DNA of 64,000 nt, from the NCBI GenBank assembly GCA_963826125.1, contig CAWGVV010000002.1:873964-937963 (forward strand), in the 5' to 3' direction. Below are positions 18,983 to 27,291 of the stretch, piece after piece. The position numbers and the translations under genes were made by a program. Under the pieces are notes generated by a model, which was given only the letters and a program-made list of their open reading frames with translations, made no database searches and was not told the DNA's origin. Every line of letters begins with the position of its first letter. Within the stretch, counting starts at the first letter, position 1. This stretch comes from an uncultured delta proteobacterium. Lineage in GTDB: Bacteria > Desulfobacterota > Desulfarculia > JACQYL01 > CAWGVV01.

Positions 18983-19348
18983 CTGAAGACGGAGGCCTCC
19001 TGTTGTGGTTATTTCGTCGAATGTCGACAATCGACAAATAGCCGCCCGAACCTGTTCGTGTCAAGAAAAATCGGGAAACATTCCCCATAAATCGGAGCAA
19101 GTGAAAATTTGCGCAAGCATGCGGAACGAAATCCGCCCATTCCCGGACGTTCGTCCCTCATTCAGGGTGAGGAATCATGACGTCCTGCAAACGCCCGCGG
19201 AGATCGGGGATGCGAAGGGGGACGCGCCGTTTCTTGCCACGGGTCTCTTTTGCCGGAATGACGAAACGGAGGCGCGAGGAGGATGCTCCGACCCCCTCCG
19301 GGGGGCACGGTGGATTACGCGCGACAGCCGGGCGTCCTGACGGCAACC

Positions 19349-19390
19349 AAAAAAACAGTCGTGGGGAACCGATTGCCCGTTCCCCACGAC
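19349..19390 (-). terminator. rho-independent terminator downstream of the TauE gene (12-bp stem GTCGTGGGGAAC/GTTCCCCACGAC, then UGUUUUUUU on the minus strand)
   Basis: read directly from sequence. Confidence 0.7.
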
Positions 19391-19445
19391 CGTCGTGGTT
19401 TCACCTTTTTGTTTTTCCGATCGCGGAAGGCGATCTGCCGCCGTG

Positions 19446-20525
19446 TTACTCCGCCTGGAACGCCTCCTGTCCTCCGGACTGGAGTTGGGCCTCCAGTCGC
19501 CTGCCCACCACCATGCCCTTGAGGATAATATATGCGCCGAGGATCAGGGCGAAGGCCATCAGGCCGAAACTCACCTTGTTCAGGATATTCGCCGTCCCCT
19601 CGCCCAGGGTGAAGAACTGGAGCTTGCTCAGGTACACGGGGATGGCGATGCCTCTGCTCACGGCCACGATGAGCATGATGGTGGCCATGACGAATTTGAT
19701 GACGTAACCCTTCACGTAGGTGGTGCCGATGGCTCCGAGCTGTACGCCGAAGAGGGAGCCGGCCAGAATGATCAGGGTGAGCCGGATGTCCACCATTCCG
19801 TACCAGGCCCAGATGAGCGTGCCGCCCATGCCCATGACGAAGGCGACGACCAGTTCGCTGGCCGAGGCCATGAGGCTGGAAAGTCCGAGGAGATAGATCA
19901 TGCCGGGCACGCCGATGAAGCCGCCCACGGCGATGGTGGCCGCCAGCATGCCGGTAGCCAGTCCCAGGGGAATGGTGAACCACAGGGAGATGCGGATGCC
20001 GCTGCGCTTGAAGGTGATCATGGGCCACAGTTCGATCGATTGCAGCCACTTGGCCAGCTTGGTGACCTTCTCCTCACCGCCCGACTTCTTCAGGTTCAAG
20101 GCGTCCCGGAGAATGAAGTAGCCCACGATGCTCAACACGGCCACGAAGGCGAGGCTGACGTACAGGTTGGACCCCGCCTGTCCCCATTTCTGCAAGATCC
20201 AGCGCTGAAACTGAATCCCGATCTGCACGCCGATTTCCGCCGAAGCACCGATGATGACACCGAGCTTGATATCAACTTGTCCGTAGCGGAACCGCTTGAT
20301 GGCTCCCACCAGGGCCTTGGGGAACTTGTGGCACATGTTGCTGGCCACGGCCACCGTGCCGGGGACACCGAGGCTCATCATACCGGGGGTGAGCACGAAT
20401 GCGCCGCCCGACCCGATGAAACCGCTCACCAAACCACCGACAAAGCCCACGAAAAGAAGGAAGATAAAATTCGCCGCGTTGAGATCGATGAAGCGTACGG
20501 CTTCCGTAATCGCGCTATGATCCAT
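19446..20525 (-). CDS. TauE/SafE (TSUP) family sulfite/anion exporter-type permease
   Basis: 359-aa polytopic membrane protein with the duplicated TSUP glycine-rich helices (GGLVSGFIGSGGAFVLTPGMM … IAVGGFIGVPGMIYLLG). Confidence 0.8.
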   Translation of the reverse strand: MDHSAITEAVRFIDLNAANFIFLLFVGFVGGLVSGFIGSGGAFVLTPGMMSLGVPGTVAVASNMCHKFPKALVGAIKRFRYGQVDIKLGVIIGASAEIGVQIGIQFQRWILQKWGQAGSNLYVSLAFVAVLSIVGYFILRDALNLKKSGGEEKVTKLAKWLQSIELWPMITFKRSGIRISLWFTIPLGLATGMLAATIAVGGFIGVPGMIYLLGLSSLMASASELVVAFVMGMGGTLIWAWYGMVDIRLTLIILAGSLFGVQLGAIGTTYVKGYVIKFVMATIMLIVAVSRGIAIPVYLSKLQFFTLGEGTANILNKVSFGLMAFALILGAYIILKGMVVGRRLEAQLQSGGQEAFQAE

Positions 20526-20636
20526 TTTGTACTGCTCCTTTCTCCATTACGGCCCTCTTCACCTACCGAAGAGGGCGGGACATACGATTGAAACGTTGAA
20601 AGTCGTATGGATGATGCAAACCGTCGGTTTCGCCTG

Positions 20637-21086
20637 TTACGCCCTGAGGGTCGGACGGGGGCGAACTCTCTTTTTCTCGACCCTTTTTTCGGCCTGAACC
20701 GGTTTCTCCGCCGTTTTCGTCGCGCTATGGGAAGCTTCTATGCCCAGAGCGGTCCACACGTTGCTGGCGAACGAACCGTGAACGTAGGAAAAGAGAAACA
20801 CGGTCAGCACGGGCAGGACCGCGTAGAATCCTCCCTTGGTGAAATAGCTCATTATGGGCTGAGTGAAACTGAACACCGCCAGGTAGAGGCTGACGGAAAC
20901 GACTCCGAAAACAACCGCTCTCTGCGCGGCTTTTTTCCTCTTTTTGCTCGCCACGGAAGTCGTCGTTCTATCGTTCTTGTTCATCCGATTCTCCGTTCCC
21001 CGCATAATTTCCTCCGCCATTGTAAATTCGCCGCTTTCGGCAAACGCTACCGCCGCTCCCATTGCTTCAAGCTTTTCTCGTAACAT
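20637..21086 (-). CDS. small two-TM membrane protein, unknown function; shares an N-terminal ~28-aa module with the gene upstream
   Basis: MLREKLEAMGAAVAFAESGEFTMAEEIMRG module then Lys-rich linker and two hydrophobic helices. Confidence 0.5.
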   Translation of the reverse strand: MLREKLEAMGAAVAFAESGEFTMAEEIMRGTENRMNKNDRTTTSVASKKRKKAAQRAVVFGVVSVSLYLAVFSFTQPIMSYFTKGGFYAVLPVLTVFLFSYVHGSFASNVWTALGIEASHSATKTAEKPVQAEKRVEKKRVRPRPTLRA

Positions 21087-21110
21087 TGGAAGTCCTCCTC
21101 CCTGTTAATC

Positions 21111-21617
21111 TCATTGCTCAGCCTCGATGAAGAACACCGGTAGGCTGAGATCGATACCCCATTGTTGGTTGCTGTTTTTTTGCACCAGAACGAATTCGAT
21201 TCCCTTCACCAGATGCACCAGTTTCACGACAAGCGACTGGACGGACGTCCTGCATTCGATAAACGCACCGCCGATTTCCAGTTGCGAAAACCGTTTTTTC
21301 GTCTCGCGCGTAAAAGAAGCGTCTTCCTTTCCACGAGACAGGATCCGCTTCATTCCGGTTCTCTTCTTTCCCGCTTCTTCGGATTCCCGCTGGGGATGGA
21401 GAACGAACACCACGTCGTACGTGAGCCTCTTCGACAAATTCGCGACGTATTGGTACACGGAATCGTTCAGTGACGTGCCGTTGGTGAGAAAGAGGAACTT
21501 TCGGTTTTTGCTCTTCGAGAGTTGACGGACTTCCTTCATGATCGATTCGGCCACGTCCCATTGGCCCGCTTCGGCGAATGCGGCGGCGGCGGCGATGTCT
21601 TCGAGATATTTTTTCAT
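21111..21617 (-). CDS. hypothetical protein with the N-terminal module MKKYLEDIAAAAAFAEAGQWDVAESIMKE
   Basis: ATG at 21617 has an AGGGAGGAGG RBS 8 nt upstream and a sigma-54-like promoter just beyond; the longer track ORF start lacks these. Confidence 0.5.
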   Translation of the reverse strand: MKKYLEDIAAAAAFAEAGQWDVAESIMKEVRQLSKSKNRKFLFLTNGTSLNDSVYQYVANLSKRLTYDVVFVLHPQRESEEAGKKRTGMKRILSRGKEDASFTRETKKRFSQLEIGGAFIECRTSVQSLVVKLVHLVKGIEFVLVQKNSNQQWGIDLSLPVFFIEAEQ

Positions 21618-21649
21618 CGTGCAGTCCTCCTCCCTTGGTTGTTCTAATA

Positions 21650-21664
21650 TCAATTTGCGTGCCA
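21650..21664 (-). promoter_or_regulatory. sigma-54-like promoter (TGGCACG-caaa-TTGAt on the minus strand) ~35 nt upstream of the 21617 start
   Basis: -24 element is consensus; -12 element is TTGA rather than TTGC, so moderate. Confidence 0.45.
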
Positions 21665-21953
21665 CGGGCTATTTCGTTGTTAAGCTATTGAAAATAATAT
21701 TATATTTTCTCTACTCATGCCGATTCGCCATTGCCGGCTGTTGCATTTTTCAACACCGGCCGTGCCGTGGCGGGCGGGGAAAAGGAAGAAAAGCCCCATT
21801 CCTCCCGACAAAATGGTCGTTGCAGATGGCAACAGAGGCCATGTTGCAAAAAGCAACGCATTGACAGAAGGAGAAAAGACGTGGAAAATTCAAATGCTTC
21901 GCGGTCCGGACAAGAAAAAGGAAAACGCCGCGGGCGGAGAGGGGGACAGGCGC

Positions 21954-23963
21954 ATGTTCTTCAAGAAAACGTCCGAGACCGGCACCGAGAAGGAAGAGGA
22001 GAGCCAGGAAATACAGGACCTCCGTAAGTCGGTGGAACAGGCGCGCATGCCCGACCGGGTGAAGACGATCGCCGGGAAGGAACTGGAGCGGTTGGCCAAG
22101 ACCGACCCCTCCCTGGCCGAGTACGGCATAGGACTGAACTACCTGGAATTCATCCTCTCCCTGCCCTGGGAGAAGTCGTCCAAGGACAACCTGGACTTGT
22201 CCCGCGCCGAACGGATCCTCGACGAGGAACACTACGCGCTGGCTCCGGTCAAGGAGCGGGTGCTCGAATACCTGGCGTCCAACATAAAGATCGGGTTGAA
22301 ACCCACCCGCATGATGGTGGTCGACGACGAAAAGATCGCCCTGGAGAACGTGGCCTACGCCCTACGCAAGGAAGGCCATGAGGTGCATACGGCGGAAAAC
22401 GGCCAGGAGGCACTGGACATTCTCCGGCAGTTCGATTTCGACCTGGTGGTGACCGACCTCAAAATGCGGAACGTGGACGGTATGCAGCTGCTGGAGCGGG
22501 TCAAGGCGGAATCGCCCGAGACGGAACTCATTCTGGTCACCGGGTACGCCACCGTGGACACCGCCGTCGACGCTCTAAAGAAAGGCGCGGCCCAGTATCT
22601 GCCCAAACCGTTGAACCTGGATACCCTGCGGCAGTCGGTGAACGAGATCCTCGAACAGCGGCGGAAGGTTCACGTATCCCAGGGGCCAGTGCTCTGCTTT
22701 GCCGGACCTCCGGGCACGGGCAAAACGTCCATCGGCCGATCCATCGCCAAGGCCCTGGAACGGAGTTTCATCCGCGTGTCGGTGGCGGGACTCCGGGACG
22801 AAGCGGAAATGCGGGGACACCGCCGCACCTACGTGGGGGCCATGCCGGGAAGGATTCTTTCCGAAGTCCGGCGCATAGGGGTAAACAATCCGGTGTTCAT
22901 GCTGGACGAACTGGACAAAATCGGTCAGGACTTCCGGGGAGACCCCGCGTCGGTCCTACTCGAGGTGCTGGACCCCGAACAGAACAAACGCTTCCTGGAC
23001 CATTACGTGGACATTCCCTTCGATCTGTCCCGCGTGATGTTCATCACCACGGCCAATGCCATCGAACGGCTGTCCCGACCTCTTCTGGACCGGATGGAGG
23101 TCATCCACTTTTCCAGCTACACCTTGCGGGAAAAGTCGTCCATCGCTTCGCATTATCTGGTTCCGCGCCAGCTCAAGGCCAACGGGTTGTCTCCCCGTGA
23201 GGTGGAGTTTTCAAGGGAGGCGCTGGACAAGATCATCGGCGACTACACGGACGAAGCGGGCCTCCGGAACCTGGAGCGGGAAGTGGGGAGTGTCTGCCGC
23301 AAGGTGAACCGCCTCCTGTTGCAGGACCGCCTCAGCCTTCCGAAAAAGGTGGAAGCGGCCGACGTGGAAGCGCTCCTGGGACCGCCGCGGTTTTCCCGGC
23401 TGTCCGCTTCCGATGCACGCGTTGCGGGCGTCACCACGGGGCTGGTATGGACGGAACACGGCGGCCACGTCATTTATGTTGAAACGGCCCGGATGAAGGG
23501 CCAGGGAAAGCTCATCATGACCGGTTCCCTGGGGGAGGTGTTGAAAGAGTCCGCCCAGACCGCCCTCAGCCACATTCGCAGCAACGCAGCCGAATTCGGC
23601 ATCGATCCCGAATTTTTCGAAACGAGCGACGTCCACGTCCACATTCCGGCCGGCTCGATCCCCAAGGACGGTCCCTCCGCGGGGGTCACCATCGCCATGG
23701 CCCTGGTTTCGTTGCTCACCGGCAAGCCGGTGCGCAAGGGGGTCGCCATGTCCGGGGAGCTCACCCTGAGCGGCCGGGTGCTGCCCGTGAGCGGCTTGAG
23801 GGAAAAACTGCTGGCGGCGCAGCGTGCGGGTATCTCCACGGTGATCCTGCCCGCGGCCAACGCCACGGAGATCGCCGCTTTGGAACCCGACGTGCGTACC
23901 GCAACGAACATTGTCCAGGTGGAAAACTTCCGGGGAGCGGTACAAAACGCTTTGTCGGAATAG
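21954..23963 (+). CDS. lon: ATP-dependent Lon protease lacking the Lon N-domain, with a response-regulator receiver (REC) domain inserted between the conserved pre-AAA helix and the Walker A motif
   Basis: …PVKERVLEYLA | REC (MMVVDDEKIA … DLVVTDLKMRNVDG … LVTGYAT … KKGAAQYLPKP) | GPVLCFAGPPGTGKTS … MLDELDK … Lon_C with KDGPSAG Ser and downstream Lys; start at ATG MFFKK (GGGGGA RBS), alternative ATG at 21894. Confidence 0.8.
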   Translation: MFFKKTSETGTEKEEESQEIQDLRKSVEQARMPDRVKTIAGKELERLAKTDPSLAEYGIGLNYLEFILSLPWEKSSKDNLDLSRAERILDEEHYALAPVKERVLEYLASNIKIGLKPTRMMVVDDEKIALENVAYALRKEGHEVHTAENGQEALDILRQFDFDLVVTDLKMRNVDGMQLLERVKAESPETELILVTGYATVDTAVDALKKGAAQYLPKPLNLDTLRQSVNEILEQRRKVHVSQGPVLCFAGPPGTGKTSIGRSIAKALERSFIRVSVAGLRDEAEMRGHRRTYVGAMPGRILSEVRRIGVNNPVFMLDELDKIGQDFRGDPASVLLEVLDPEQNKRFLDHYVDIPFDLSRVMFITTANAIERLSRPLLDRMEVIHFSSYTLREKSSIASHYLVPRQLKANGLSPREVEFSREALDKIIGDYTDEAGLRNLEREVGSVCRKVNRLLLQDRLSLPKKVEAADVEALLGPPRFSRLSASDARVAGVTTGLVWTEHGGHVIYVETARMKGQGKLIMTGSLGEVLKESAQTALSHIRSNAAEFGIDPEFFETSDVHVHIPAGSIPKDGPSAGVTIAMALVSLLTGKPVRKGVAMSGELTLSGRVLPVSGLREKLLAAQRAGISTVILPAANATEIAALEPDVRTATNIVQVENFRGAVQNALSE

Positions 23964-24018
23964 GGGGTTCCTATCCCCAATAATTCATGAGAGGGTCTTG
24001 AAAAAGGAAGCGTTACGA

Positions 24019-24235
24019 GTGACGGATGCCATGGCGGCCGTCCTTCACGATCCGCGCGATCCGGAAAGAACGGTCCATGCTCTTTCCACTCCGGTGATGC
24101 AGCGTATCTTTTCCATCGCGTTGGGGCACGAGGAGACCAACGACGCCGATACGCCGAAGGGCGACCCTGCGTTCAAGATCATGTCGGGGAGGCCCGCTAA
24201 ACCAGCAATACAGGCTTGCCGCTTCCGGAGGTTTT
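24019..24235 (+). pseudogene. relic of an IS1380-family (IS4-superfamily) transposase N-terminal region, truncated at both ends
   Basis: …LHDPRDPERTVHALSTPVMQRIFSIALGHEETNDADTPKGDPAFKIMSGRPA… matches the conserved DPRDP…IALGYEDxNDAD…LRxDPxFK block of IS1380-type transposases; overlaps the 3' end of the convergent carboxyltransferase gene, so not an intact gene. Confidence 0.55.
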
Positions 24236-25588
24236 TTCAGAGACGTTATTTAGAAAAGCGTCGATTGTTGACCGTAAGGCGCCAACTTCAACCACCTCGT
24301 CGAGCAGTCCCATCTCCAGCAATTTGTGTGGATCTTCAGCACCGCTCATCATTTCATGCATCGAATCGTTTTCCTTGTCATCAAAGCCGCGTGCGGCAAG
24401 TTTTTCAGCGACCCCTTTGCCGTAGATGGATATGACGGCTCCGGGCAGCGCAATGAAACCTTCCGGATCGAAGCCGGGGCCGGCCATGGCGTAAACACCG
24501 GCGGTATAGTTGCGGCGCATCACGACCGAGAGTCTGGGGACTGCTGCGTTGGCAATGGTTGAAAAAAGAAGGGATGCTTCCCTGATTACACCGGCCTGCT
24601 CAACCTGCGGCCCCACCATGAAACCTGCGTTATCGGCAAGGAAAACCATGGGGATTCCGAAAGCATCGCAGATGGATACAAAACGGGCCGATTTTCTACA
24701 GGATTCCGGAAAGAAAAGGCCACCGCGCACGGCCGAATTATTGGCGACAATACCGGTTACCCGCCCTTCTACTCTAATGAAACCGGTAATGAGCTCACGG
24801 GCAATCCCGGCTCTCGTTTCGATCAATGATCCGGCGTCTGCTATGCCCCGGATAACCGTATGAGCATCAAAAGCTTTATAAGGGGTTGCCGGAATGACCC
24901 TTTCGAGCGCTGCATTATCAAGCGCGGGCGGCACGGTTCCCGATTTCTTGTCCTGTGTCATGCAACCCAGATAATCTTTGACCCACGCAAAAGCCCCCTC
25001 CTCGTCCGATGCAACATGGTCGATTGAACCGGCTATGGAATAATGCATCCCAGAGCCGCCGAGTTCGGCGTAATTAACCGCTTTATCACAAATCTTTTCA
25101 ACTACATCCGGTCTCCCGATACTCATTCCGGCCGACTCGACCATGACTGCCGCATCGCATAACGTTACCGGAAAGGTCAGCGTTGCACCGAGCCTGTTCA
25201 GGACCACGACAACCTGGGGAACTTTACCGGAAAGCCTGGCGTGGGTGGAATACATCCGGCCAACACCGTTCTTTCCAGCCAGAAGCCGTATCGGGTCTTT
25301 GGGAAAAGGGGTCTTGCCCGGCGTTTTATGCATGGCGGGAATATCCATGACAAAGACCACCGGAAATTTTTTCTCCAACGCTTTTTCAAGCAGCGCCAGA
25401 TGGTCCTGAAGCACTTTGCAAGAGCTTTCGGGCGCTTCATCGGGCTCAATGAAAGAGGCCATGACATCGCAGCCATCCACTTTTCCGCACCCGGTGACGA
25501 AACCGTTGTTTTGGCCCGGATTGAATGGAATGAACGTATTTTTATCAAAACATTTTTCTATTCGTGCAGCTACAGTTCGGCCGATCAT
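24197..25588 (-). CDS. acyl-CoA carboxylase carboxyltransferase subunit (propionyl-CoA carboxylase beta / methylmalonyl-CoA carboxyltransferase family)
   Basis: two carboxyltransferase half-domains; C-terminal half GRVTGIVANN…ARFVSICDAFGIPMVFLADNAGFMVGP…AVPRLSVVMRRNYTAGVYAM; lower GC than flanks; no biotin carboxylase/BCCP partner in the window. Confidence 0.8.
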   Translation of the reverse strand: MIGRTVAARIEKCFDKNTFIPFNPGQNNGFVTGCGKVDGCDVMASFIEPDEAPESSCKVLQDHLALLEKALEKKFPVVFVMDIPAMHKTPGKTPFPKDPIRLLAGKNGVGRMYSTHARLSGKVPQVVVVLNRLGATLTFPVTLCDAAVMVESAGMSIGRPDVVEKICDKAVNYAELGGSGMHYSIAGSIDHVASDEEGAFAWVKDYLGCMTQDKKSGTVPPALDNAALERVIPATPYKAFDAHTVIRGIADAGSLIETRAGIARELITGFIRVEGRVTGIVANNSAVRGGLFFPESCRKSARFVSICDAFGIPMVFLADNAGFMVGPQVEQAGVIREASLLFSTIANAAVPRLSVVMRRNYTAGVYAMAGPGFDPEGFIALPGAVISIYGKGVAEKLAARGFDDKENDSMHEMMSGAEDPHKLLEMGLLDEVVEVGALRSTIDAFLNNVSEKTSGSGKPVLLV

Positions 25589-25794
25589 TGATATTCACCT
25601 CTCTTGCGCTCGGTGGTTATAGGTCGAGTAACTGCGGTCGAAAATATCCACATAGCTGGTTTCAGGAACAACGACAAGATCGGCTTATTTTTCTTTTCCC
25701 GGTTAGCATAAATGCCGCTTCGAGACCTGCAAGGGCACCGGAAAATTGCGCGGAAGCATCGTTGATGCCTCCTTTCATTATTTCCGGGTTTATC

Positions 25795-27291
25795 TCAACG
25801 CGCTCCGTTAGGGTCGCACGATCTTACATACCGCAAAATATCCTTCGCCCTCTCGGAGTACGGATTGATAACATCATAGTTTATTTCAAGATTATTCATG
25901 TATTGCAGAATAAATTCATGCCTGTTGTTGAGACCGAACGGAAGCACGCCGGAAAAGAAAAACCCCACCTTTTCGCACTGCTGTACGACAAACGGGGTGT
26001 GGGAGTCCTCCATGTCAAGGTGGAGAAAGATAGCGTCCACGCGTCGCAGGCAGAGAGCATGAACGACCGATTCCAGTTCATGCCCGATATCCTTTCCGAT
26101 GACGGCAACCTCCACATCGGCAACATTAAGAACAGGGACTATCGCCGTATGAATCCGGCTTTGCCCGTCAATAGGCGAGGCGATCTTCTCATCGCAGTGC
26201 ACGGATATTTTAAATGACCCGAACAAATCCAGTATGGTGTTCTTATGCCTCGAGGATGGATAGATAATACGTTCGGTTTCATCCGAAAGAGGCCGGTATA
26301 ACAAAAGCCCGGTTTCCTTCTGCCCGACTTTCCCGGTGAGTGCTTTAAAATCAACATCATCGGGGAAAAGTCCGAGAAACAGACCGCATGCCACATACCC
26401 CATTGCATCCGACACCTTCTGCGAGCCGATGTGGCTTGTCACGGCCCTGCCCATGATACCATTCAGATTAAATTCCACTGCTTTCTGATAACAAAACTGC
26501 GTCAAAGCATTAAAAACACCTGACCTTCGATACTCCGGTTTCACAAAGGCGACGCCAATTTCGGCGATACGGTCCGTGCTGTTTTTGTATTTCAACGCTA
26601 TGTGACCCAGGATTTCGCCCGAATCCTTACCGGTAGCGACAAAAGAGCGCAAGGTGCCGGCGTCGTTCAGTTCAATGATCTGTTCGGGATAATAAATATA
26701 CGGCTCATAGGTGTAGCCGTAAGCCTTATAGGCGCACTTTGAGATTTCCAGCGCATCTTCGGACTTGAAAGCCCGAATCTCATATGCACTATTTCCCGTG
26801 GCGATAGCCCGGCCGCTTTTGATCAGCAGATCGTTCCCACTGCCTTCCAGGACGGCTTTTGTCCGGCTATCCTCGATCTGTTTGACCAGTGTGAGGGATT
26901 TACCCTCGCGGCCCAGGTTTTCAAACACAACATCGTCCATCATCTTTTTCATCAGAAAGACGCCCAGGCCATCAGCCGCCAGTTTTTCTTCAAGCTTCCC
27001 GGGATCATAGCCCTTAACTCTGTCCGGGCTGAAGGGCATCCCCTTTTCATGGATGGTGATAAAAAACTCCGTCTCGGTGAAATGGACCGACAGCTTGAAC
27101 GTTGCATCAGCATCGCCTTCAAAGGCATGCTTGATCACATTCGTCAGCGCCTCTTCAGTCGCGACCTCAATGTCGTTGAGCGCCGGATCGGAAAATCCGC
27201 AGGAGGCTGCTATGGCGCGTATGAATGCAAGCGCAGGGCCCACAAACCGAACTTGGGAGGGAAGGGTAATAATGGATTCAACGGGTTTCAT
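25795..27291 (-). CDS. fusion protein: RsbW/SpoIIAB-like anti-sigma-factor-type HATPase domain + GNAT acetyltransferase domain + ~170-aa uncharacterised C-terminal domain
   Basis: N-box EALTNVIKHAF and G-box DGLGVFLM in first 130 aa; GNAT core ILGHIALKY…IAEIGVAFVKPEYRRSGVFNALTQFCYQKAV; low GC. Confidence 0.7.
   Translation of the reverse strand: MKPVESIITLPSQVRFVGPALAFIRAIAASCGFSDPALNDIEVATEEALTNVIKHAFEGDADATFKLSVHFTETEFFITIHEKGMPFSPDRVKGYDPGKLEEKLAADGLGVFLMKKMMDDVVFENLGREGKSLTLVKQIEDSRTKAVLEGSGNDLLIKSGRAIATGNSAYEIRAFKSEDALEISKCAYKAYGYTYEPYIYYPEQIIELNDAGTLRSFVATGKDSGEILGHIALKYKNSTDRIAEIGVAFVKPEYRRSGVFNALTQFCYQKAVEFNLNGIMGRAVTSHIGSQKVSDAMGYVACGLFLGLFPDDVDFKALTGKVGQKETGLLLYRPLSDETERIIYPSSRHKNTILDLFGSFKISVHCDEKIASPIDGQSRIHTAIVPVLNVADVEVAVIGKDIGHELESVVHALCLRRVDAIFLHLDMEDSHTPFVVQQCEKVGFFFSGVLPFGLNNRHEFILQYMNNLEINYDVINPYSERAKDILRYVRSCDPNGAR

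What the first reader, a model, noticed from the sequence alone, without database searches (positions are those of the whole stretch)
20637..21665. Two adjacent small proteins sharing an N-terminal (E)xIAAAxAFAExGxxxxAExIM module behind a sigma-54-like promoter, divergent from the REC-Lon
The proteins encoded at 21617 and 21086 (minus strand) begin MKKYLEDIAAAAAFAEAGQWDVAESIMKE and MLREKLEAMGAAVAFAESGEFTMAEEIMRG. The second then continues into a two-TM membrane anchor, the first into a soluble alpha/beta-looking domain. A TGGCACG-N4-TTGA element (21650..21664, minus strand) lies about 35 nt upstream of a strong RBS. The pair sits between a TauE/SafE permease and the unusual REC-Lon, suggesting a small regulated module (possible Lon substrate or adaptor pair) of unknown function.
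Basis: seen in the sequence. Interest (0 to 1): 0.5.

Follow-up and report, generated by a model that had tools for sequence, protein, structure and literature searches.

The report
Shared hairpin on split transporter partners
Two small neighbouring proteins share a 30-residue TPR-like helical hairpin that occurs only in species where a stress-protein domain and its membrane partner are separate genes, and they sit in an already described sigma-54-controlled stress operon beside a phosphorylation-controlled Lon protease.

Summary
Genes A (21111-21617, minus) and B (20637-21086, minus) share an N-terminal hairpin and lie behind TGGCAC-N5-TTGA (21650-21664).

The locus is not unknown. By gene order and regulatory sites it matches DVU3302-DVU3298 of Desulfovibrio vulgaris Hildenborough. 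That operon is the published sigma-54 target of the DVU3305 (activator) / DVU3304 (kinase) / DVU3303 (REC-Lon) "three-component system". Three GTTGC-N5-GCAAC sites, the gel-shift-validated DVU3305 motif, lie 75-195 bp upstream of the promoter.

A is the hairpin plus a divergent universal-stress-protein (USP) fold. B is the hairpin plus a conserved two-helix membrane core and a basic RPRPTLRA tail.

What is new is the distribution across 82 related loci:
- 34 loci encode USP and membrane core as one protein, and none has the hairpin.
- 44 of 48 non-fused loci have it.
- It nearly always comes in pairs: one on the USP protein, one on a tail-bearing protein (B, or a 55-residue protein S).

The hairpin is TPR-like and unannotated, and it recurs in hundreds of small proteins near TauE and two-component genes.

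Best reading: a docking hairpin that rejoins the split USP-membrane unit accompanying the TauE permease. A role as Lon substrate or adaptor remains untested.

The parts
21843..21857 (.). Activator (EBP) binding site 1, GTTGCAAAAAGCAAC, exact palindrome GTTGC-N5-GCAAC
   Evidence: The motif equals the gel-shift-validated DVU3305 site TGTTGCGATATGCAACA (Rajeev 2011 supplement).
21819..21833 (.). Activator binding site 2, GTTGCAGATGGCAAC, exact
21740..21754 (.). Activator binding site 3, GTTGCATTTTTCAAC, one mismatch
   Evidence: The three sites are the only matches at up to 1 mismatch in the 64-kb window.
21650..21664 (-). Sigma-54-type promoter TGGCAC-N5-TTGA (-24 GG present; -12 is GA instead of GC)
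21111..21617 (-). Gene A, 168 aa: N-terminal hairpin plus divergent USP-like domain (inferred counterpart of DVU3301)
21531..21617 (-). Hairpin module of A (residues 1-29; predicted helices 2-16 and 20-34)
21126..21506 (-). USP-like domain of A (below Pfam threshold; lacks the G-x2-G-x9-G-S/T nucleotide motif)
20637..21086 (-). Gene B, 149 aa: hairpin plus basic linker plus two-helix membrane core plus basic tail (inferred counterpart of DVU3300, with the small protein S/DVU3302 in effect fused on)
21000..21083 (-). Hairpin module of B (residues 2-29)
20727..20939 (-). Conserved membrane core of B (two hydrophobic helices and the FSYVHGSFASNVWTALGIEAS motif)
   Evidence: G61, G85, P92, S100, H103, G104, W111 and G115 are invariant
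20640..20663 (-). C-terminal tail RPRPTLRA, the motif shared by B, fused USP-B proteins and the small S proteins
20552..20576 (-). Perfect 9-bp stem with 7-nt loop between B and TauE, no T-run; role unknown
   Evidence: read from sequence
19446..20525 (-). TauE/SafE (TSUP) family permease, inferred counterpart of DVU3299
21861..21889 (+). Sigma-70-like promoter TTGACA-17-GAAAAT in front of REC-Lon
   Evidence: consistent, which says the DVU3303-3305 operon has no sigma-54 promoter
21954..23963 (+). REC-Lon: receiver domain + AAA+ + Lon_C protease, inferred counterpart of DVU3303. The ORF is open from 21717; probable start is 21954.

Best explanation
A and B are the first two genes of a sigma-54-dependent stress operon, A-B-TauE. 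By gene order and regulatory sites it corresponds to DVU3302-DVU3298 of D. vulgaris Hildenborough. A DVU3305-type enhancer-binding response regulator switches it on by binding the three GTTGC-N5-GCAAC sites upstream of the TGGCAC-N5-TTGA promoter.

The operon encodes a cytoplasmic, probably non-nucleotide-binding USP-like domain (A) and a small two-helix membrane protein (B). B always sits directly in front of a TauE-family anion permease. In about 40% of related loci, USP and membrane core are a single polypeptide.

The shared 28-30-residue element is one TPR-like helix-turn-helix hairpin with the signature L-E-x4-A-x-A-F-A-E-x-G-(D/E)-x2-(T/x)-A. I infer that it is a docking module. When the USP-membrane protein is split, one hairpin stays on the USP half. 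A second sits on a polypeptide carrying the basic RPRxxLxA C-terminal tail, which is B itself here and a 55-residue protein S in most relatives. The two hairpins would pair and rebuild the unit non-covalently. By analogy with USP-transporter pairs, that unit would regulate or accompany the permease. The divergent REC-Lon, phosphorylated by the same kinase, probably controls turnover of components of the system.

Shown: the genes, the promoter, the activator sites, the synteny, the USP fold, the TPR-like nature and the fused/split distribution.

Taken from the literature for the matching D. vulgaris locus: activator binding, the sigma-54 promoter, and cofitness of Lon, kinase and regulator.

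Inferred: hairpin-hairpin docking, regulation of TauE, and the role of Lon.
For: Regulation:
- The window holds a single sigma-54-like site and three activator sites, all in the 300-bp A/Lon intergenic region.
- Both elements recur in related loci.
- Rajeev 2011 gel-shifted DVU3305 on TGTTGCGATATGCAACA and mapped DVU3302-3298 and DVU3303-3305 as its targets.
- Kazakov 2015 lists a sigma-54 promoter for DVU3302-3298.

Synteny:
- B is followed by TauE in essentially all loci, and REC-Lon is divergent in 70 of 75 informative loci.
- The activator gene is nearby in 60 of 64 informative loci.

Proteins:
- The AlphaFold model of A has pLDDT 85.5. It shows helices 2-16 and 20-34 followed by a beta-alpha-beta domain.
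- The best Foldseek PDB hits are all USPs, including the KdpD USP domain and TeaD of the TeaABC transporter.

Docking:
- None of 34 fused loci carries the hairpin, against 44 of 48 non-fused loci.
- The four exceptions are two overlapping or frameshift-like USP/B ORFs (L006, L065), one truncated flank (L077), and one locus (L023) whose pair lies elsewhere in the locus.
- A neighbour-joining tree of TauE needs about 7 fused/split changes, so this is not one inherited event.
- Hairpins come in pairs: one on the USP protein and one on a tail-bearing S or B.
- Fusion proteins P0051 and P0068 lack the hairpin.
- The hairpin region has lower model confidence (71-86) than the USP core (above 90), as expected if it needs a partner.
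Against: - No interaction was computed or measured. The tools offer no multimer prediction.
- The model of a natural tandem-hairpin protein was not confident (pTM 0.46; three long helices), so it does not show hairpins packing on each other.
- In the commonest split arrangement the second hairpin is on the soluble S protein, not on B. Simple 'USP re-docks on the membrane core' therefore holds literally only for the window type (A + B). Elsewhere it needs the extra assumption that the tail is the functional handle.
- Some loci have three or four hairpins, or a hairpin inserted inside the USP domain.
- The fused/split correlation rests on a quick neighbour-joining tree.
- The activator and kinase genes are not in this window.
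- The -12 GA departs from the sigma-54 consensus.
- Published fitness data are hard to reconcile with simple activation. Loss of Lon, kinase or regulator is beneficial in chlorate, while loss of the permease is harmful.
Confidence: 0.5

Rival explanations
1. The hairpin is a recognition tag (degron or adaptor-binding element) through which the phosphorylation-controlled REC-Lon selects A and B.
For: - Near-universal divergent linkage with REC-Lon.
- REC-Lon lacks the usual Lon N-terminal substrate-binding domain, so it needs another way to find substrates.
- Lon, kinase and regulator have cofitness above 0.9 in D. vulgaris.
Against: - The 34 fused-type loci have no hairpin at all, yet most of them keep the divergent REC-Lon.
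- Hairpin proteins occur in TauE/USP or receiver-gene loci with no Lon within 5 kb (L086, L087, L088).
- The element that is common to fused, split and S proteins is the C-terminal RPRxxLxA tail, not the hairpin.
Confidence: 0.12
2. The hairpin binds the basic C-terminal RPRxxLxA tail of B or S, in the way TPR domains clamp C-terminal peptides. Tail and hairpin would then be the two halves of the docking pair.
For: - The hairpin is TPR-like with a nearly invariant Glu and usually a second acidic residue.
- The tail is Arg-rich and ends in a free small residue.
- Tail-bearing and hairpin-bearing proteins always co-occur in split loci.
Against: - Fused proteins keep the tail but have no hairpin anywhere in the locus.
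- From general knowledge, one hairpin is too small to form a TPR peptide groove, which normally needs three repeats.
Confidence: 0.1
3. The hairpin proteins are connector or anti-adaptor-like small proteins that bind receiver domains (REC-Lon, the activator, or stand-alone REC proteins) and tune phosphotransfer.
For: Tandem-hairpin proteins sit directly beside two or three stand-alone receiver genes in L086 and L088, and beside kinase/activator pairs in L087.
Against: - It does not explain the strict absence from fused loci, which have the same signalling genes.
- No sequence or structural evidence for receiver binding was obtained.
Confidence: 0.1
4. The similarity is a chance resemblance of two Ala-rich amphipathic N-termini with no common origin or role.
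For: The segment is short and Ala-rich. Neither window protein hits any Pfam family above threshold: A has no hit at E <= 0.1, and B has only one sub-threshold hit to an unrelated family, outside the hairpin.
Against: - Profile E-values are 1e-11 to 1e-13.
- Positions E, A, A-E and G are nearly invariant across 43 instances.
- All 82 hits in 1.86 million six-frame residues fall in these operons or their neighbouring genes.
- A database search finds 801 proteins at E <= 1.
Confidence: 0.01

Closest known systems
DVU3305 / DVU3304 / DVU3303 'three-component system' and its target operon DVU3302-DVU3298 in Desulfovibrio (Nitratidesulfovibrio) vulgaris Hildenborough (Rajeev 2011; Kazakov 2015; Trotter 2023)
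   Same: - Same gene set and order: REC-Lon divergent from small hypothetical proteins, a USP-like protein, a small membrane protein and a TauE-type anion permease.
- Same activator motif, GTTGC-N5-GCAAC.
- A sigma-54 promoter in front of the small-protein operon and none in front of Lon.
Sources.
   Different: - Here the 55-75-residue S protein (DVU3302 type) is not a separate gene. Its hairpin sits on B.
- The order is A-B rather than S-A-B.
- The trailing USP gene (DVU3298 type) is absent.
- The kinase and activator genes are not next to Lon in this window.
- The published work does not mention the shared hairpin, the tail, or the fused/split pattern.
Tetratricopeptide (TPR) repeats, Pfam TPR_4 / TPR_12 / TPR_14
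   Same: - Two antiparallel helices of about 14 residues.
- Small residues at the helix-packing positions and an aromatic residue after the turn.
- Pfam TPR models hit tandem-hairpin relatives at or just below threshold (27.2 and 27.4 bits against a cut-off of 27).
   Different: - One repeat per protein instead of arrays of three or more.
- A very sharp signature of its own (AFAEAGE).
- No Pfam TPR hit for either window protein at E <= 0.1.
- Found on USP and membrane proteins of one operon type.
USP proteins attached to transporters or their sensors (TeaD with the TRAP transporter TeaABC; the USP domain of KdpD)
   Same: The USP fold of A is among the best structural matches to 3hgm (TeaD) and 7ji4 (KdpD USP). 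It is genetically tied to a permease, and in relatives it is fused to the permease-adjacent membrane protein.
   Different: - Sequence identity is 5-17%.
- It is below the Pfam Usp threshold.
- The nucleotide-binding glycine motif is absent (read from the sequences).
- The partner is a TauE/TSUP permease plus a private two-helix membrane protein.
Docking domains that rejoin split multienzymes such as PKS/NRPS subunits (recalled from general knowledge, not tested here)
   Same: Short terminal helical elements are present only when one functional unit is divided between polypeptides. They are absent when the unit is fused.
   Different: Unrelated sequences and fold. Here the pairing is inferred only from distribution.
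Response-regulator-controlled proteolysis (RssB with ClpXP, CpdR with ClpXP) (recalled from general knowledge)
   Same: A receiver domain gates an AAA+ protease in response to a kinase. The receiver of REC-Lon resembles the RssB and CpdR models.
   Different: Here the receiver is fused directly to the Lon ATPase-protease and replaces its N-domain. No substrate is known.

Membership tests
Sigma-54-dependent promoter | -24 element with GG (TGGCAC) | tested here: met
   TGGCAC at 21664-21659
Sigma-54-dependent promoter | -12 element with GC (tTGCt in Desulfovibrionales, per Kazakov 2015) | tested here: not met
   The element is TTGA. The same departure (TTGA or TTGT) is conserved in 35 of 47 related promoters. 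The consensus is quoted.
Sigma-54-dependent promoter | Fixed spacing between the two elements, and position just upstream of the gene | tested here: met
   GG to TG spacing matches the consensus pattern. The element ends 32 nt before the ATG. The position is conserved in 47 of 70 loci, against 0.05 expected per locus.
Sigma-54-dependent promoter | Upstream binding sites for an enhancer-binding protein | tested here: met
   Three GTTGC-N5-GCAAC sites lie 75-195 bp upstream. The motif was validated by gel shift for DVU3305.
Sigma-54-dependent promoter | Transcription depends on RpoN and the activator | not testable with these tools
   Only literature on the matching D. vulgaris locus is available. 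The activator gene is not in this window.
DVU3302-3298 / DVU3303-3305 system | Conserved gene order: REC-Lon divergent from USP-like, small membrane protein and TauE | tested here: met
   Nitratidesulfovibrio loci L068 and L082-L084 show the same arrangement. D. vulgaris Hildenborough belongs to that genus.
DVU3302-3298 / DVU3303-3305 system | Kinase and sigma-54 activator encoded next to REC-Lon | tested here: not met
   There is no activator homologue in the 64-kb window. It is present within 8 kb in 60 of 64 informative related loci.
Universal stress protein (Pfam PF00582) | Pfam model above the gathering score | tested here: not met
   No Pfam hit for A at E <= 0.1. A fused relative also gives none. 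Only P0051 hits Usp, at 2e-5.
Universal stress protein (Pfam PF00582) | USP alpha/beta fold | tested here: met
   Model pLDDT is 85.5. The top 18 Foldseek PDB hits are all USPs, probability 0.98-1.00 and TM-score by target 0.26-0.63, mostly 0.5-0.63.
Universal stress protein (Pfam PF00582) | ATP-binding motif G-x2-G-x9-G-(S/T) | tested here: not met
   No such glycine motif appears before the last strand in A or its 32 relatives (read from the alignment).
TPR repeat | Match to Pfam TPR models | tested here: inconclusive
   Window proteins: none at E <= 0.1. Tandem-hairpin relatives: TPR_4 at 27.2-27.4 bits against a cut-off of 27, and TPR_12 up to 29.2 against 30.1.
TPR repeat | Helix-turn-helix of about 34 residues | tested here: met
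   Helices 2-16 and 20-34 in the model of A.
TPR repeat | Tandem array of three or more repeats forming a superhelix | tested here: not met
   There is one repeat per protein here. Relatives have one to three.
Lon substrate or adaptor | Binding to, or degradation by, REC-Lon | not testable with these tools
   Only genetic linkage is available. The hairpin's distribution argues against it being the handle.
Phage_holin_4_2 (PF04020), for B | Pfam model above the gathering score, shared by family members | tested here: not met
   17.8 bits against a cut-off of 28.8, and only 1 of 20 family members hits.
TauE/SafE (TSUP) permease, for the downstream gene | Pfam PF01925 above the gathering score | tested here: met
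   118 bits against a cut-off of 32.6.

The most novel reading that the evidence does not exclude
The AFAEAGE hairpin and the RPRxxLxA C-terminal tail together form a modular targeting code. The hairpins assemble USP and small partner proteins. The tail then delivers the assembly, or the membrane core, to the kinase-activated REC-Lon. Signal-dependent proteolysis would thereby gate a TauE-family anion exporter. This would be a post-translational arm of the 'three-component system', and it could explain the opposite chlorate phenotypes of the signalling genes and the permease in D. vulgaris.
Probability: 0.15. Interest if true: 0.7.

Novelty: new variant of a known kind. Interest (0 to 1): 0.42.

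Why it matters
The operon, its sigma-54 control and its link to REC-Lon are already published for D. vulgaris, so that part only confirms known biology in a new genome. The added value has three parts.

1. A previously unannotated TPR-like single-hairpin family with a sharp signature. A profile search finds 801 database proteins at E <= 1. The sampled members come from Thermodesulfobacteriota and Nitrospirota.
2. A clean natural fused-versus-split pattern that points to a docking role.
3. A shared C-terminal tail that is a concrete candidate handle for the uncharacterised receiver-Lon protease.

Together these give testable hypotheses for three hypothetical proteins of a stress system (DVU3300-3302). 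That system affects chlorate tolerance and probably sulfur-oxyanion export in sulfate reducers.

Tried and rejected
- The word-index homologue search with A found only A itself. The exhaustive HMMER search was needed to find the family of 33 representatives.
It was replaced by an alignment of S proteins and module-bearing N-termini.
- An AlphaFold model of a natural tandem-hairpin protein (P0135) was meant as a proxy for hairpin-hairpin packing. It gave pTM 0.46 and three long helices, so it was not used as evidence.
- Fitness values for DVU3298-3303 were not found in the held supplements of Trotter 2023.
- Rfam found no RNA family in 19000-24200.
- The Pfam Phage_holin_4_2 hit to B was rejected: it is sub-threshold and only 1 of 20 members hits.
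- No intrinsic terminator separates A, B and TauE. The terminator-like hits are at chance level.
- The raw count of activator-motif matches in the window is not significant by itself (3 against 2.24 expected at up to 1 mismatch). The argument rests on their clustering in one intergenic region and on conservation across loci.
Full report
**What is in the window**

On the minus strand lie gene A (21111-21617, 168 aa), gene B (20637-21086, 149 aa) and a TauE/SafE permease (19446-20525). Both A and B start at an ATG behind the same strong Shine-Dalgarno sequence, GGGAGGAGG.

Divergent on the plus strand is a protein with a receiver domain, an AAA+ module, a Lon lid and the Lon_C protease. Its ORF is open from 21717, but relatives align only from residue about 65-80. 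Regulatory sites also fall inside the first 47 codons, so the likely start is 21954.

The two N-termini align 13/28 identical and 22/28 similar, E = 1e-6 for the pair. Neither A nor B reaches any Pfam or NCBIfam threshold.

**The promoter and its activator sites**

TGGCACGCAAATTGA (21664-21650, minus) is the only TGGCAC-N5-TTGM match in 64 kb. It ends 15 nt before the ribosome-binding site and 32 nt before the ATG.

Upstream of it, within 118 bp, are the only three matches in the window to GTTGC-N5-GCAAC at up to one mismatch: 21740-54, 21819-33 and 21843-57.

This palindrome is the binding site of the sigma-54 enhancer-binding response regulator DVU3305 of D. vulgaris Hildenborough. The supplement of Rajeev et al. 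2011 lists a gel shift on AAAGCCTCGTGTTGCGATATGCAACACGAGGCCAC that is lost when the half-sites are mutated.

The same paper describes DVU3305, the kinase DVU3304 and the 'unusual' Lon-containing response regulator DVU3303 as a three-component system. [quoted passage not shown]

Kazakov et al. 2015 list a sigma-54 promoter for DVU3302-3298 but none for DVU3303-3305. In line with this, the window has a sigma-70-like TTGACA-17-GAAAAT at 21861-21889 in front of Lon.

Trotter et al. 2023 report three things:
- Lon, kinase and regulator have pairwise cofitness above 0.9.
- Those three genes are detrimental in chlorate.
- The putative anion transporter DVU3299 is needed in chlorate.

**Conservation**

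A search of one genome per species with the B family returned 80 loci. They come from Desulfovibrionaceae, Desulfocapsaceae, Desulfobacterales, Desulfomonilaceae and Syntrophobacteraceae.

- B is followed directly by a TauE gene (64-77% identical to the window's) in all but one locus with enough flank.
- REC-Lon is divergent, 0.4-3.4 kb upstream (usually 0.4-1.6 kb), in 70 of 75 informative distinct loci. It is elsewhere in the locus in three more.
- An orthologue of the activator (47-100% identity to the L002 protein) lies within the fetched 8 kb in 60 of 64 informative loci. It is within 1.5 kb of Lon in 38. The window itself has none.
- A sigma-54-like element in the same position occurs in 47 of 70 loci, against 0.05 expected per locus.
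- Exact GTTGC-N5-GCAAC palindromes, one to three copies, occur in the same intergenic region in at least 35 loci.
- The -12 element is TTGA (26 loci) or TTGT (9) rather than TTGC. This is a conserved departure from the consensus.

It is also already known for the model organism.

**What A and B are**

An exhaustive HMMER search with A found only 33 cluster representatives. All are 135-231 aa, and all carry the hairpin at or near the N-terminus.

The AlphaFold model of A has pLDDT 85.5 and pTM 0.79. It shows two helices (2-16 and 20-34) followed by an alpha/beta domain. The best PDB matches to that domain are all universal stress proteins, including the KdpD USP domain and the transporter-associated TeaD. 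The nucleotide-binding glycine motif is missing (read).

B belongs to a family of about 70 clusters. Most are about 104 aa and consist of two hydrophobic helices, the invariant FSYVHGSF..N.W..LGIE motif and a basic tail ending RPRxxLxA. Only the closest relatives carry the N-terminal hairpin.

**The fused/split pattern**

Two database proteins are USP-B fusions without a hairpin. Profiles for the hairpin and for the USP part were iterated on the loci. They sort the 82 distinct loci as follows.

| Architecture | Loci | With hairpin |
|---|---|---|
| USP and B core in one ORF (250-310 aa) | 34 | 0 |
| Not fused | 48 | 44 |

The four non-fused loci without a detected hairpin are explained as follows:
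- L006 and L065 have USP and B ORFs that abut or overlap, as after a very recent split or a frameshift.
- L077 has a truncated flank.
- L023 has a hairpin pair elsewhere in the locus.

In non-fused loci the hairpins nearly always come in twos. One is on the USP protein. The other is on a 51-77-residue protein S (hairpin, basic linker, RPRxxLxA-type tail) or on B itself, as in the window.

A strict form of the tail motif ends 46% of B or fused proteins and 45% of S proteins. It ends 1.8% of background ORFs.

On a neighbour-joining tree of TauE the fused/non-fused character changes about seven times. The association is therefore not one inherited accident, although that tree is only a rough guide.

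**The hairpin beyond this operon**

In six-frame translations of all loci (1.86 million residues) the profile gives 82 hits at E < 1e-3. All are in these operons or in neighbouring USP or S-like genes. They include USP proteins with two N-terminal hairpins and USP proteins with a hairpin inserted in the middle of the domain.

A database search with an alignment of S proteins found 801 proteins at E <= 1. Many are 84-132-residue proteins with two or three tandem hairpins, from Thermodesulfobacteriota and Nitrospirota.

Pfam TPR models (TPR_4, TPR_12, TPR_14, TPR_6) hit these proteins at or just under threshold, always on the hairpin. So the module is a diverged TPR-like repeat with its own signature. 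It is not an annotated family.

Three of the four contexts examined again contain TauE permeases or two-component genes, and two of them (L087, L088) contain TauE. None of the four has a Lon:
- L087: kinase, sigma-54 activator, USP with an inserted hairpin, a two-hairpin protein, a one-hairpin protein, a B-core protein, TauE and a USP.
- L088: a kinase, stand-alone receiver genes and TauE.
- L086: a three-hairpin protein followed by three stand-alone receiver genes.
- L085: no recognisable related genes.

**Mechanism**

The distribution is what a docking element would show. It is absent when two parts are covalently joined, present on both parts when they are separate, and variable in where it is attached. 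I therefore take hairpin pairing between the USP protein and a tail-bearing partner as the best explanation. In this window it would tether A to the membrane protein B next to the permease.

This is an inference. No complex could be predicted with the tools, and the tandem-hairpin model was not confident. The frequent placement of the second hairpin on soluble S rather than on B means the tail, not the membrane core, may be the part that has to be linked to the USP domain.

The hairpin is unlikely to be the Lon handle. Fused lineages keep REC-Lon without it, and Lon-free loci have it. The tail is the better candidate for that role, but nothing here tests it.

**Verdict**

The sigma-54 control, the conserved linkage with REC-Lon and the nearby activator in relatives all hold, and they match published work on DVU3298-3305. 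The 'unknown module' is a new, sharply defined TPR-like hairpin family. Its fused/split distribution suggests docking.

Novelty is moderate: a new variant of a known kind, inside a known regulon.

Noticed in passing
window 21650-21653 (minus); loci L028, L032, L035, L037, L040, L052, L067, L068, L078, L081 and others: The -12 element of this operon's sigma-54 promoter is conserved as TTGA (26 loci) or TTGT (9) instead of the Desulfovibrionales consensus tTGCt. A conserved non-consensus -12 base may tune basal or induced expression.
   Followed up: partly
window 21861-21889 (+): A sigma-70-like promoter, TTGACA-17-GAAAAT, lies immediately next to the activator binding sites and upstream of the probable REC-Lon start at 21954. 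Activator binding could therefore also affect Lon transcription without a sigma-54 promoter, as reported for DVU3303-3305.
   Followed up: partly
window 20552-20576 (minus): A perfect 9-bp stem with a 7-nt loop (GCCCTCTTC-GGTAGGT-GAAGAGGGC) lies between B and TauE, 26 nt before the TauE start codon, with no T-run. It may be a processing, stability or translational element.
   Followed up: no
window 23964-27291: Most relatives have the kinase and sigma-54 activator genes converging on REC-Lon. This window instead has a carboxyltransferase (24197-25588, minus) and an HATPase_c_2 + GNAT protein (25795-27291, minus). The cognate two-component genes must be elsewhere in this genome.
   Followed up: partly
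L086:5001-5399, L088:5001-5360, and proteins P0108, P0111, P0165, P0201, P0210: A second class of small proteins carries two or three tandem AFAEAGE hairpins with a different conserved C-terminus (..GLxGVxVxYGxV..). They are encoded beside stand-alone receiver genes, and in L088 also beside a TauE permease. Function unknown.
   Followed up: partly
L087:4491-4976, L015:6510-7190, L023:10746-11429 (minus), L078:1276-1782 (minus): In these USP-like proteins the hairpin is inserted in the middle of the USP domain rather than at the N-terminus. Each is paired with an S-like or multi-hairpin small protein.
   Followed up: partly
L052:13817-14515, L074:13832-14620, protein P0099: These proteins carry two tandem N-terminal hairpins. 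In L052 and L074 the pair is followed by a USP-like domain. In P0099 (135 aa) it is followed by an unrelated C-terminal region.
   Followed up: no
literature, PMC13490349: [quoted passage not shown] Whether that membrane protein belongs to the B family was not checked.
   Followed up: no
window 21717-21953 (+): The 748-aa REC-Lon ORF listed mechanically is over-extended by about 79 codons. The extension covers the three activator sites and the sigma-70-like promoter.
   Followed up: yes
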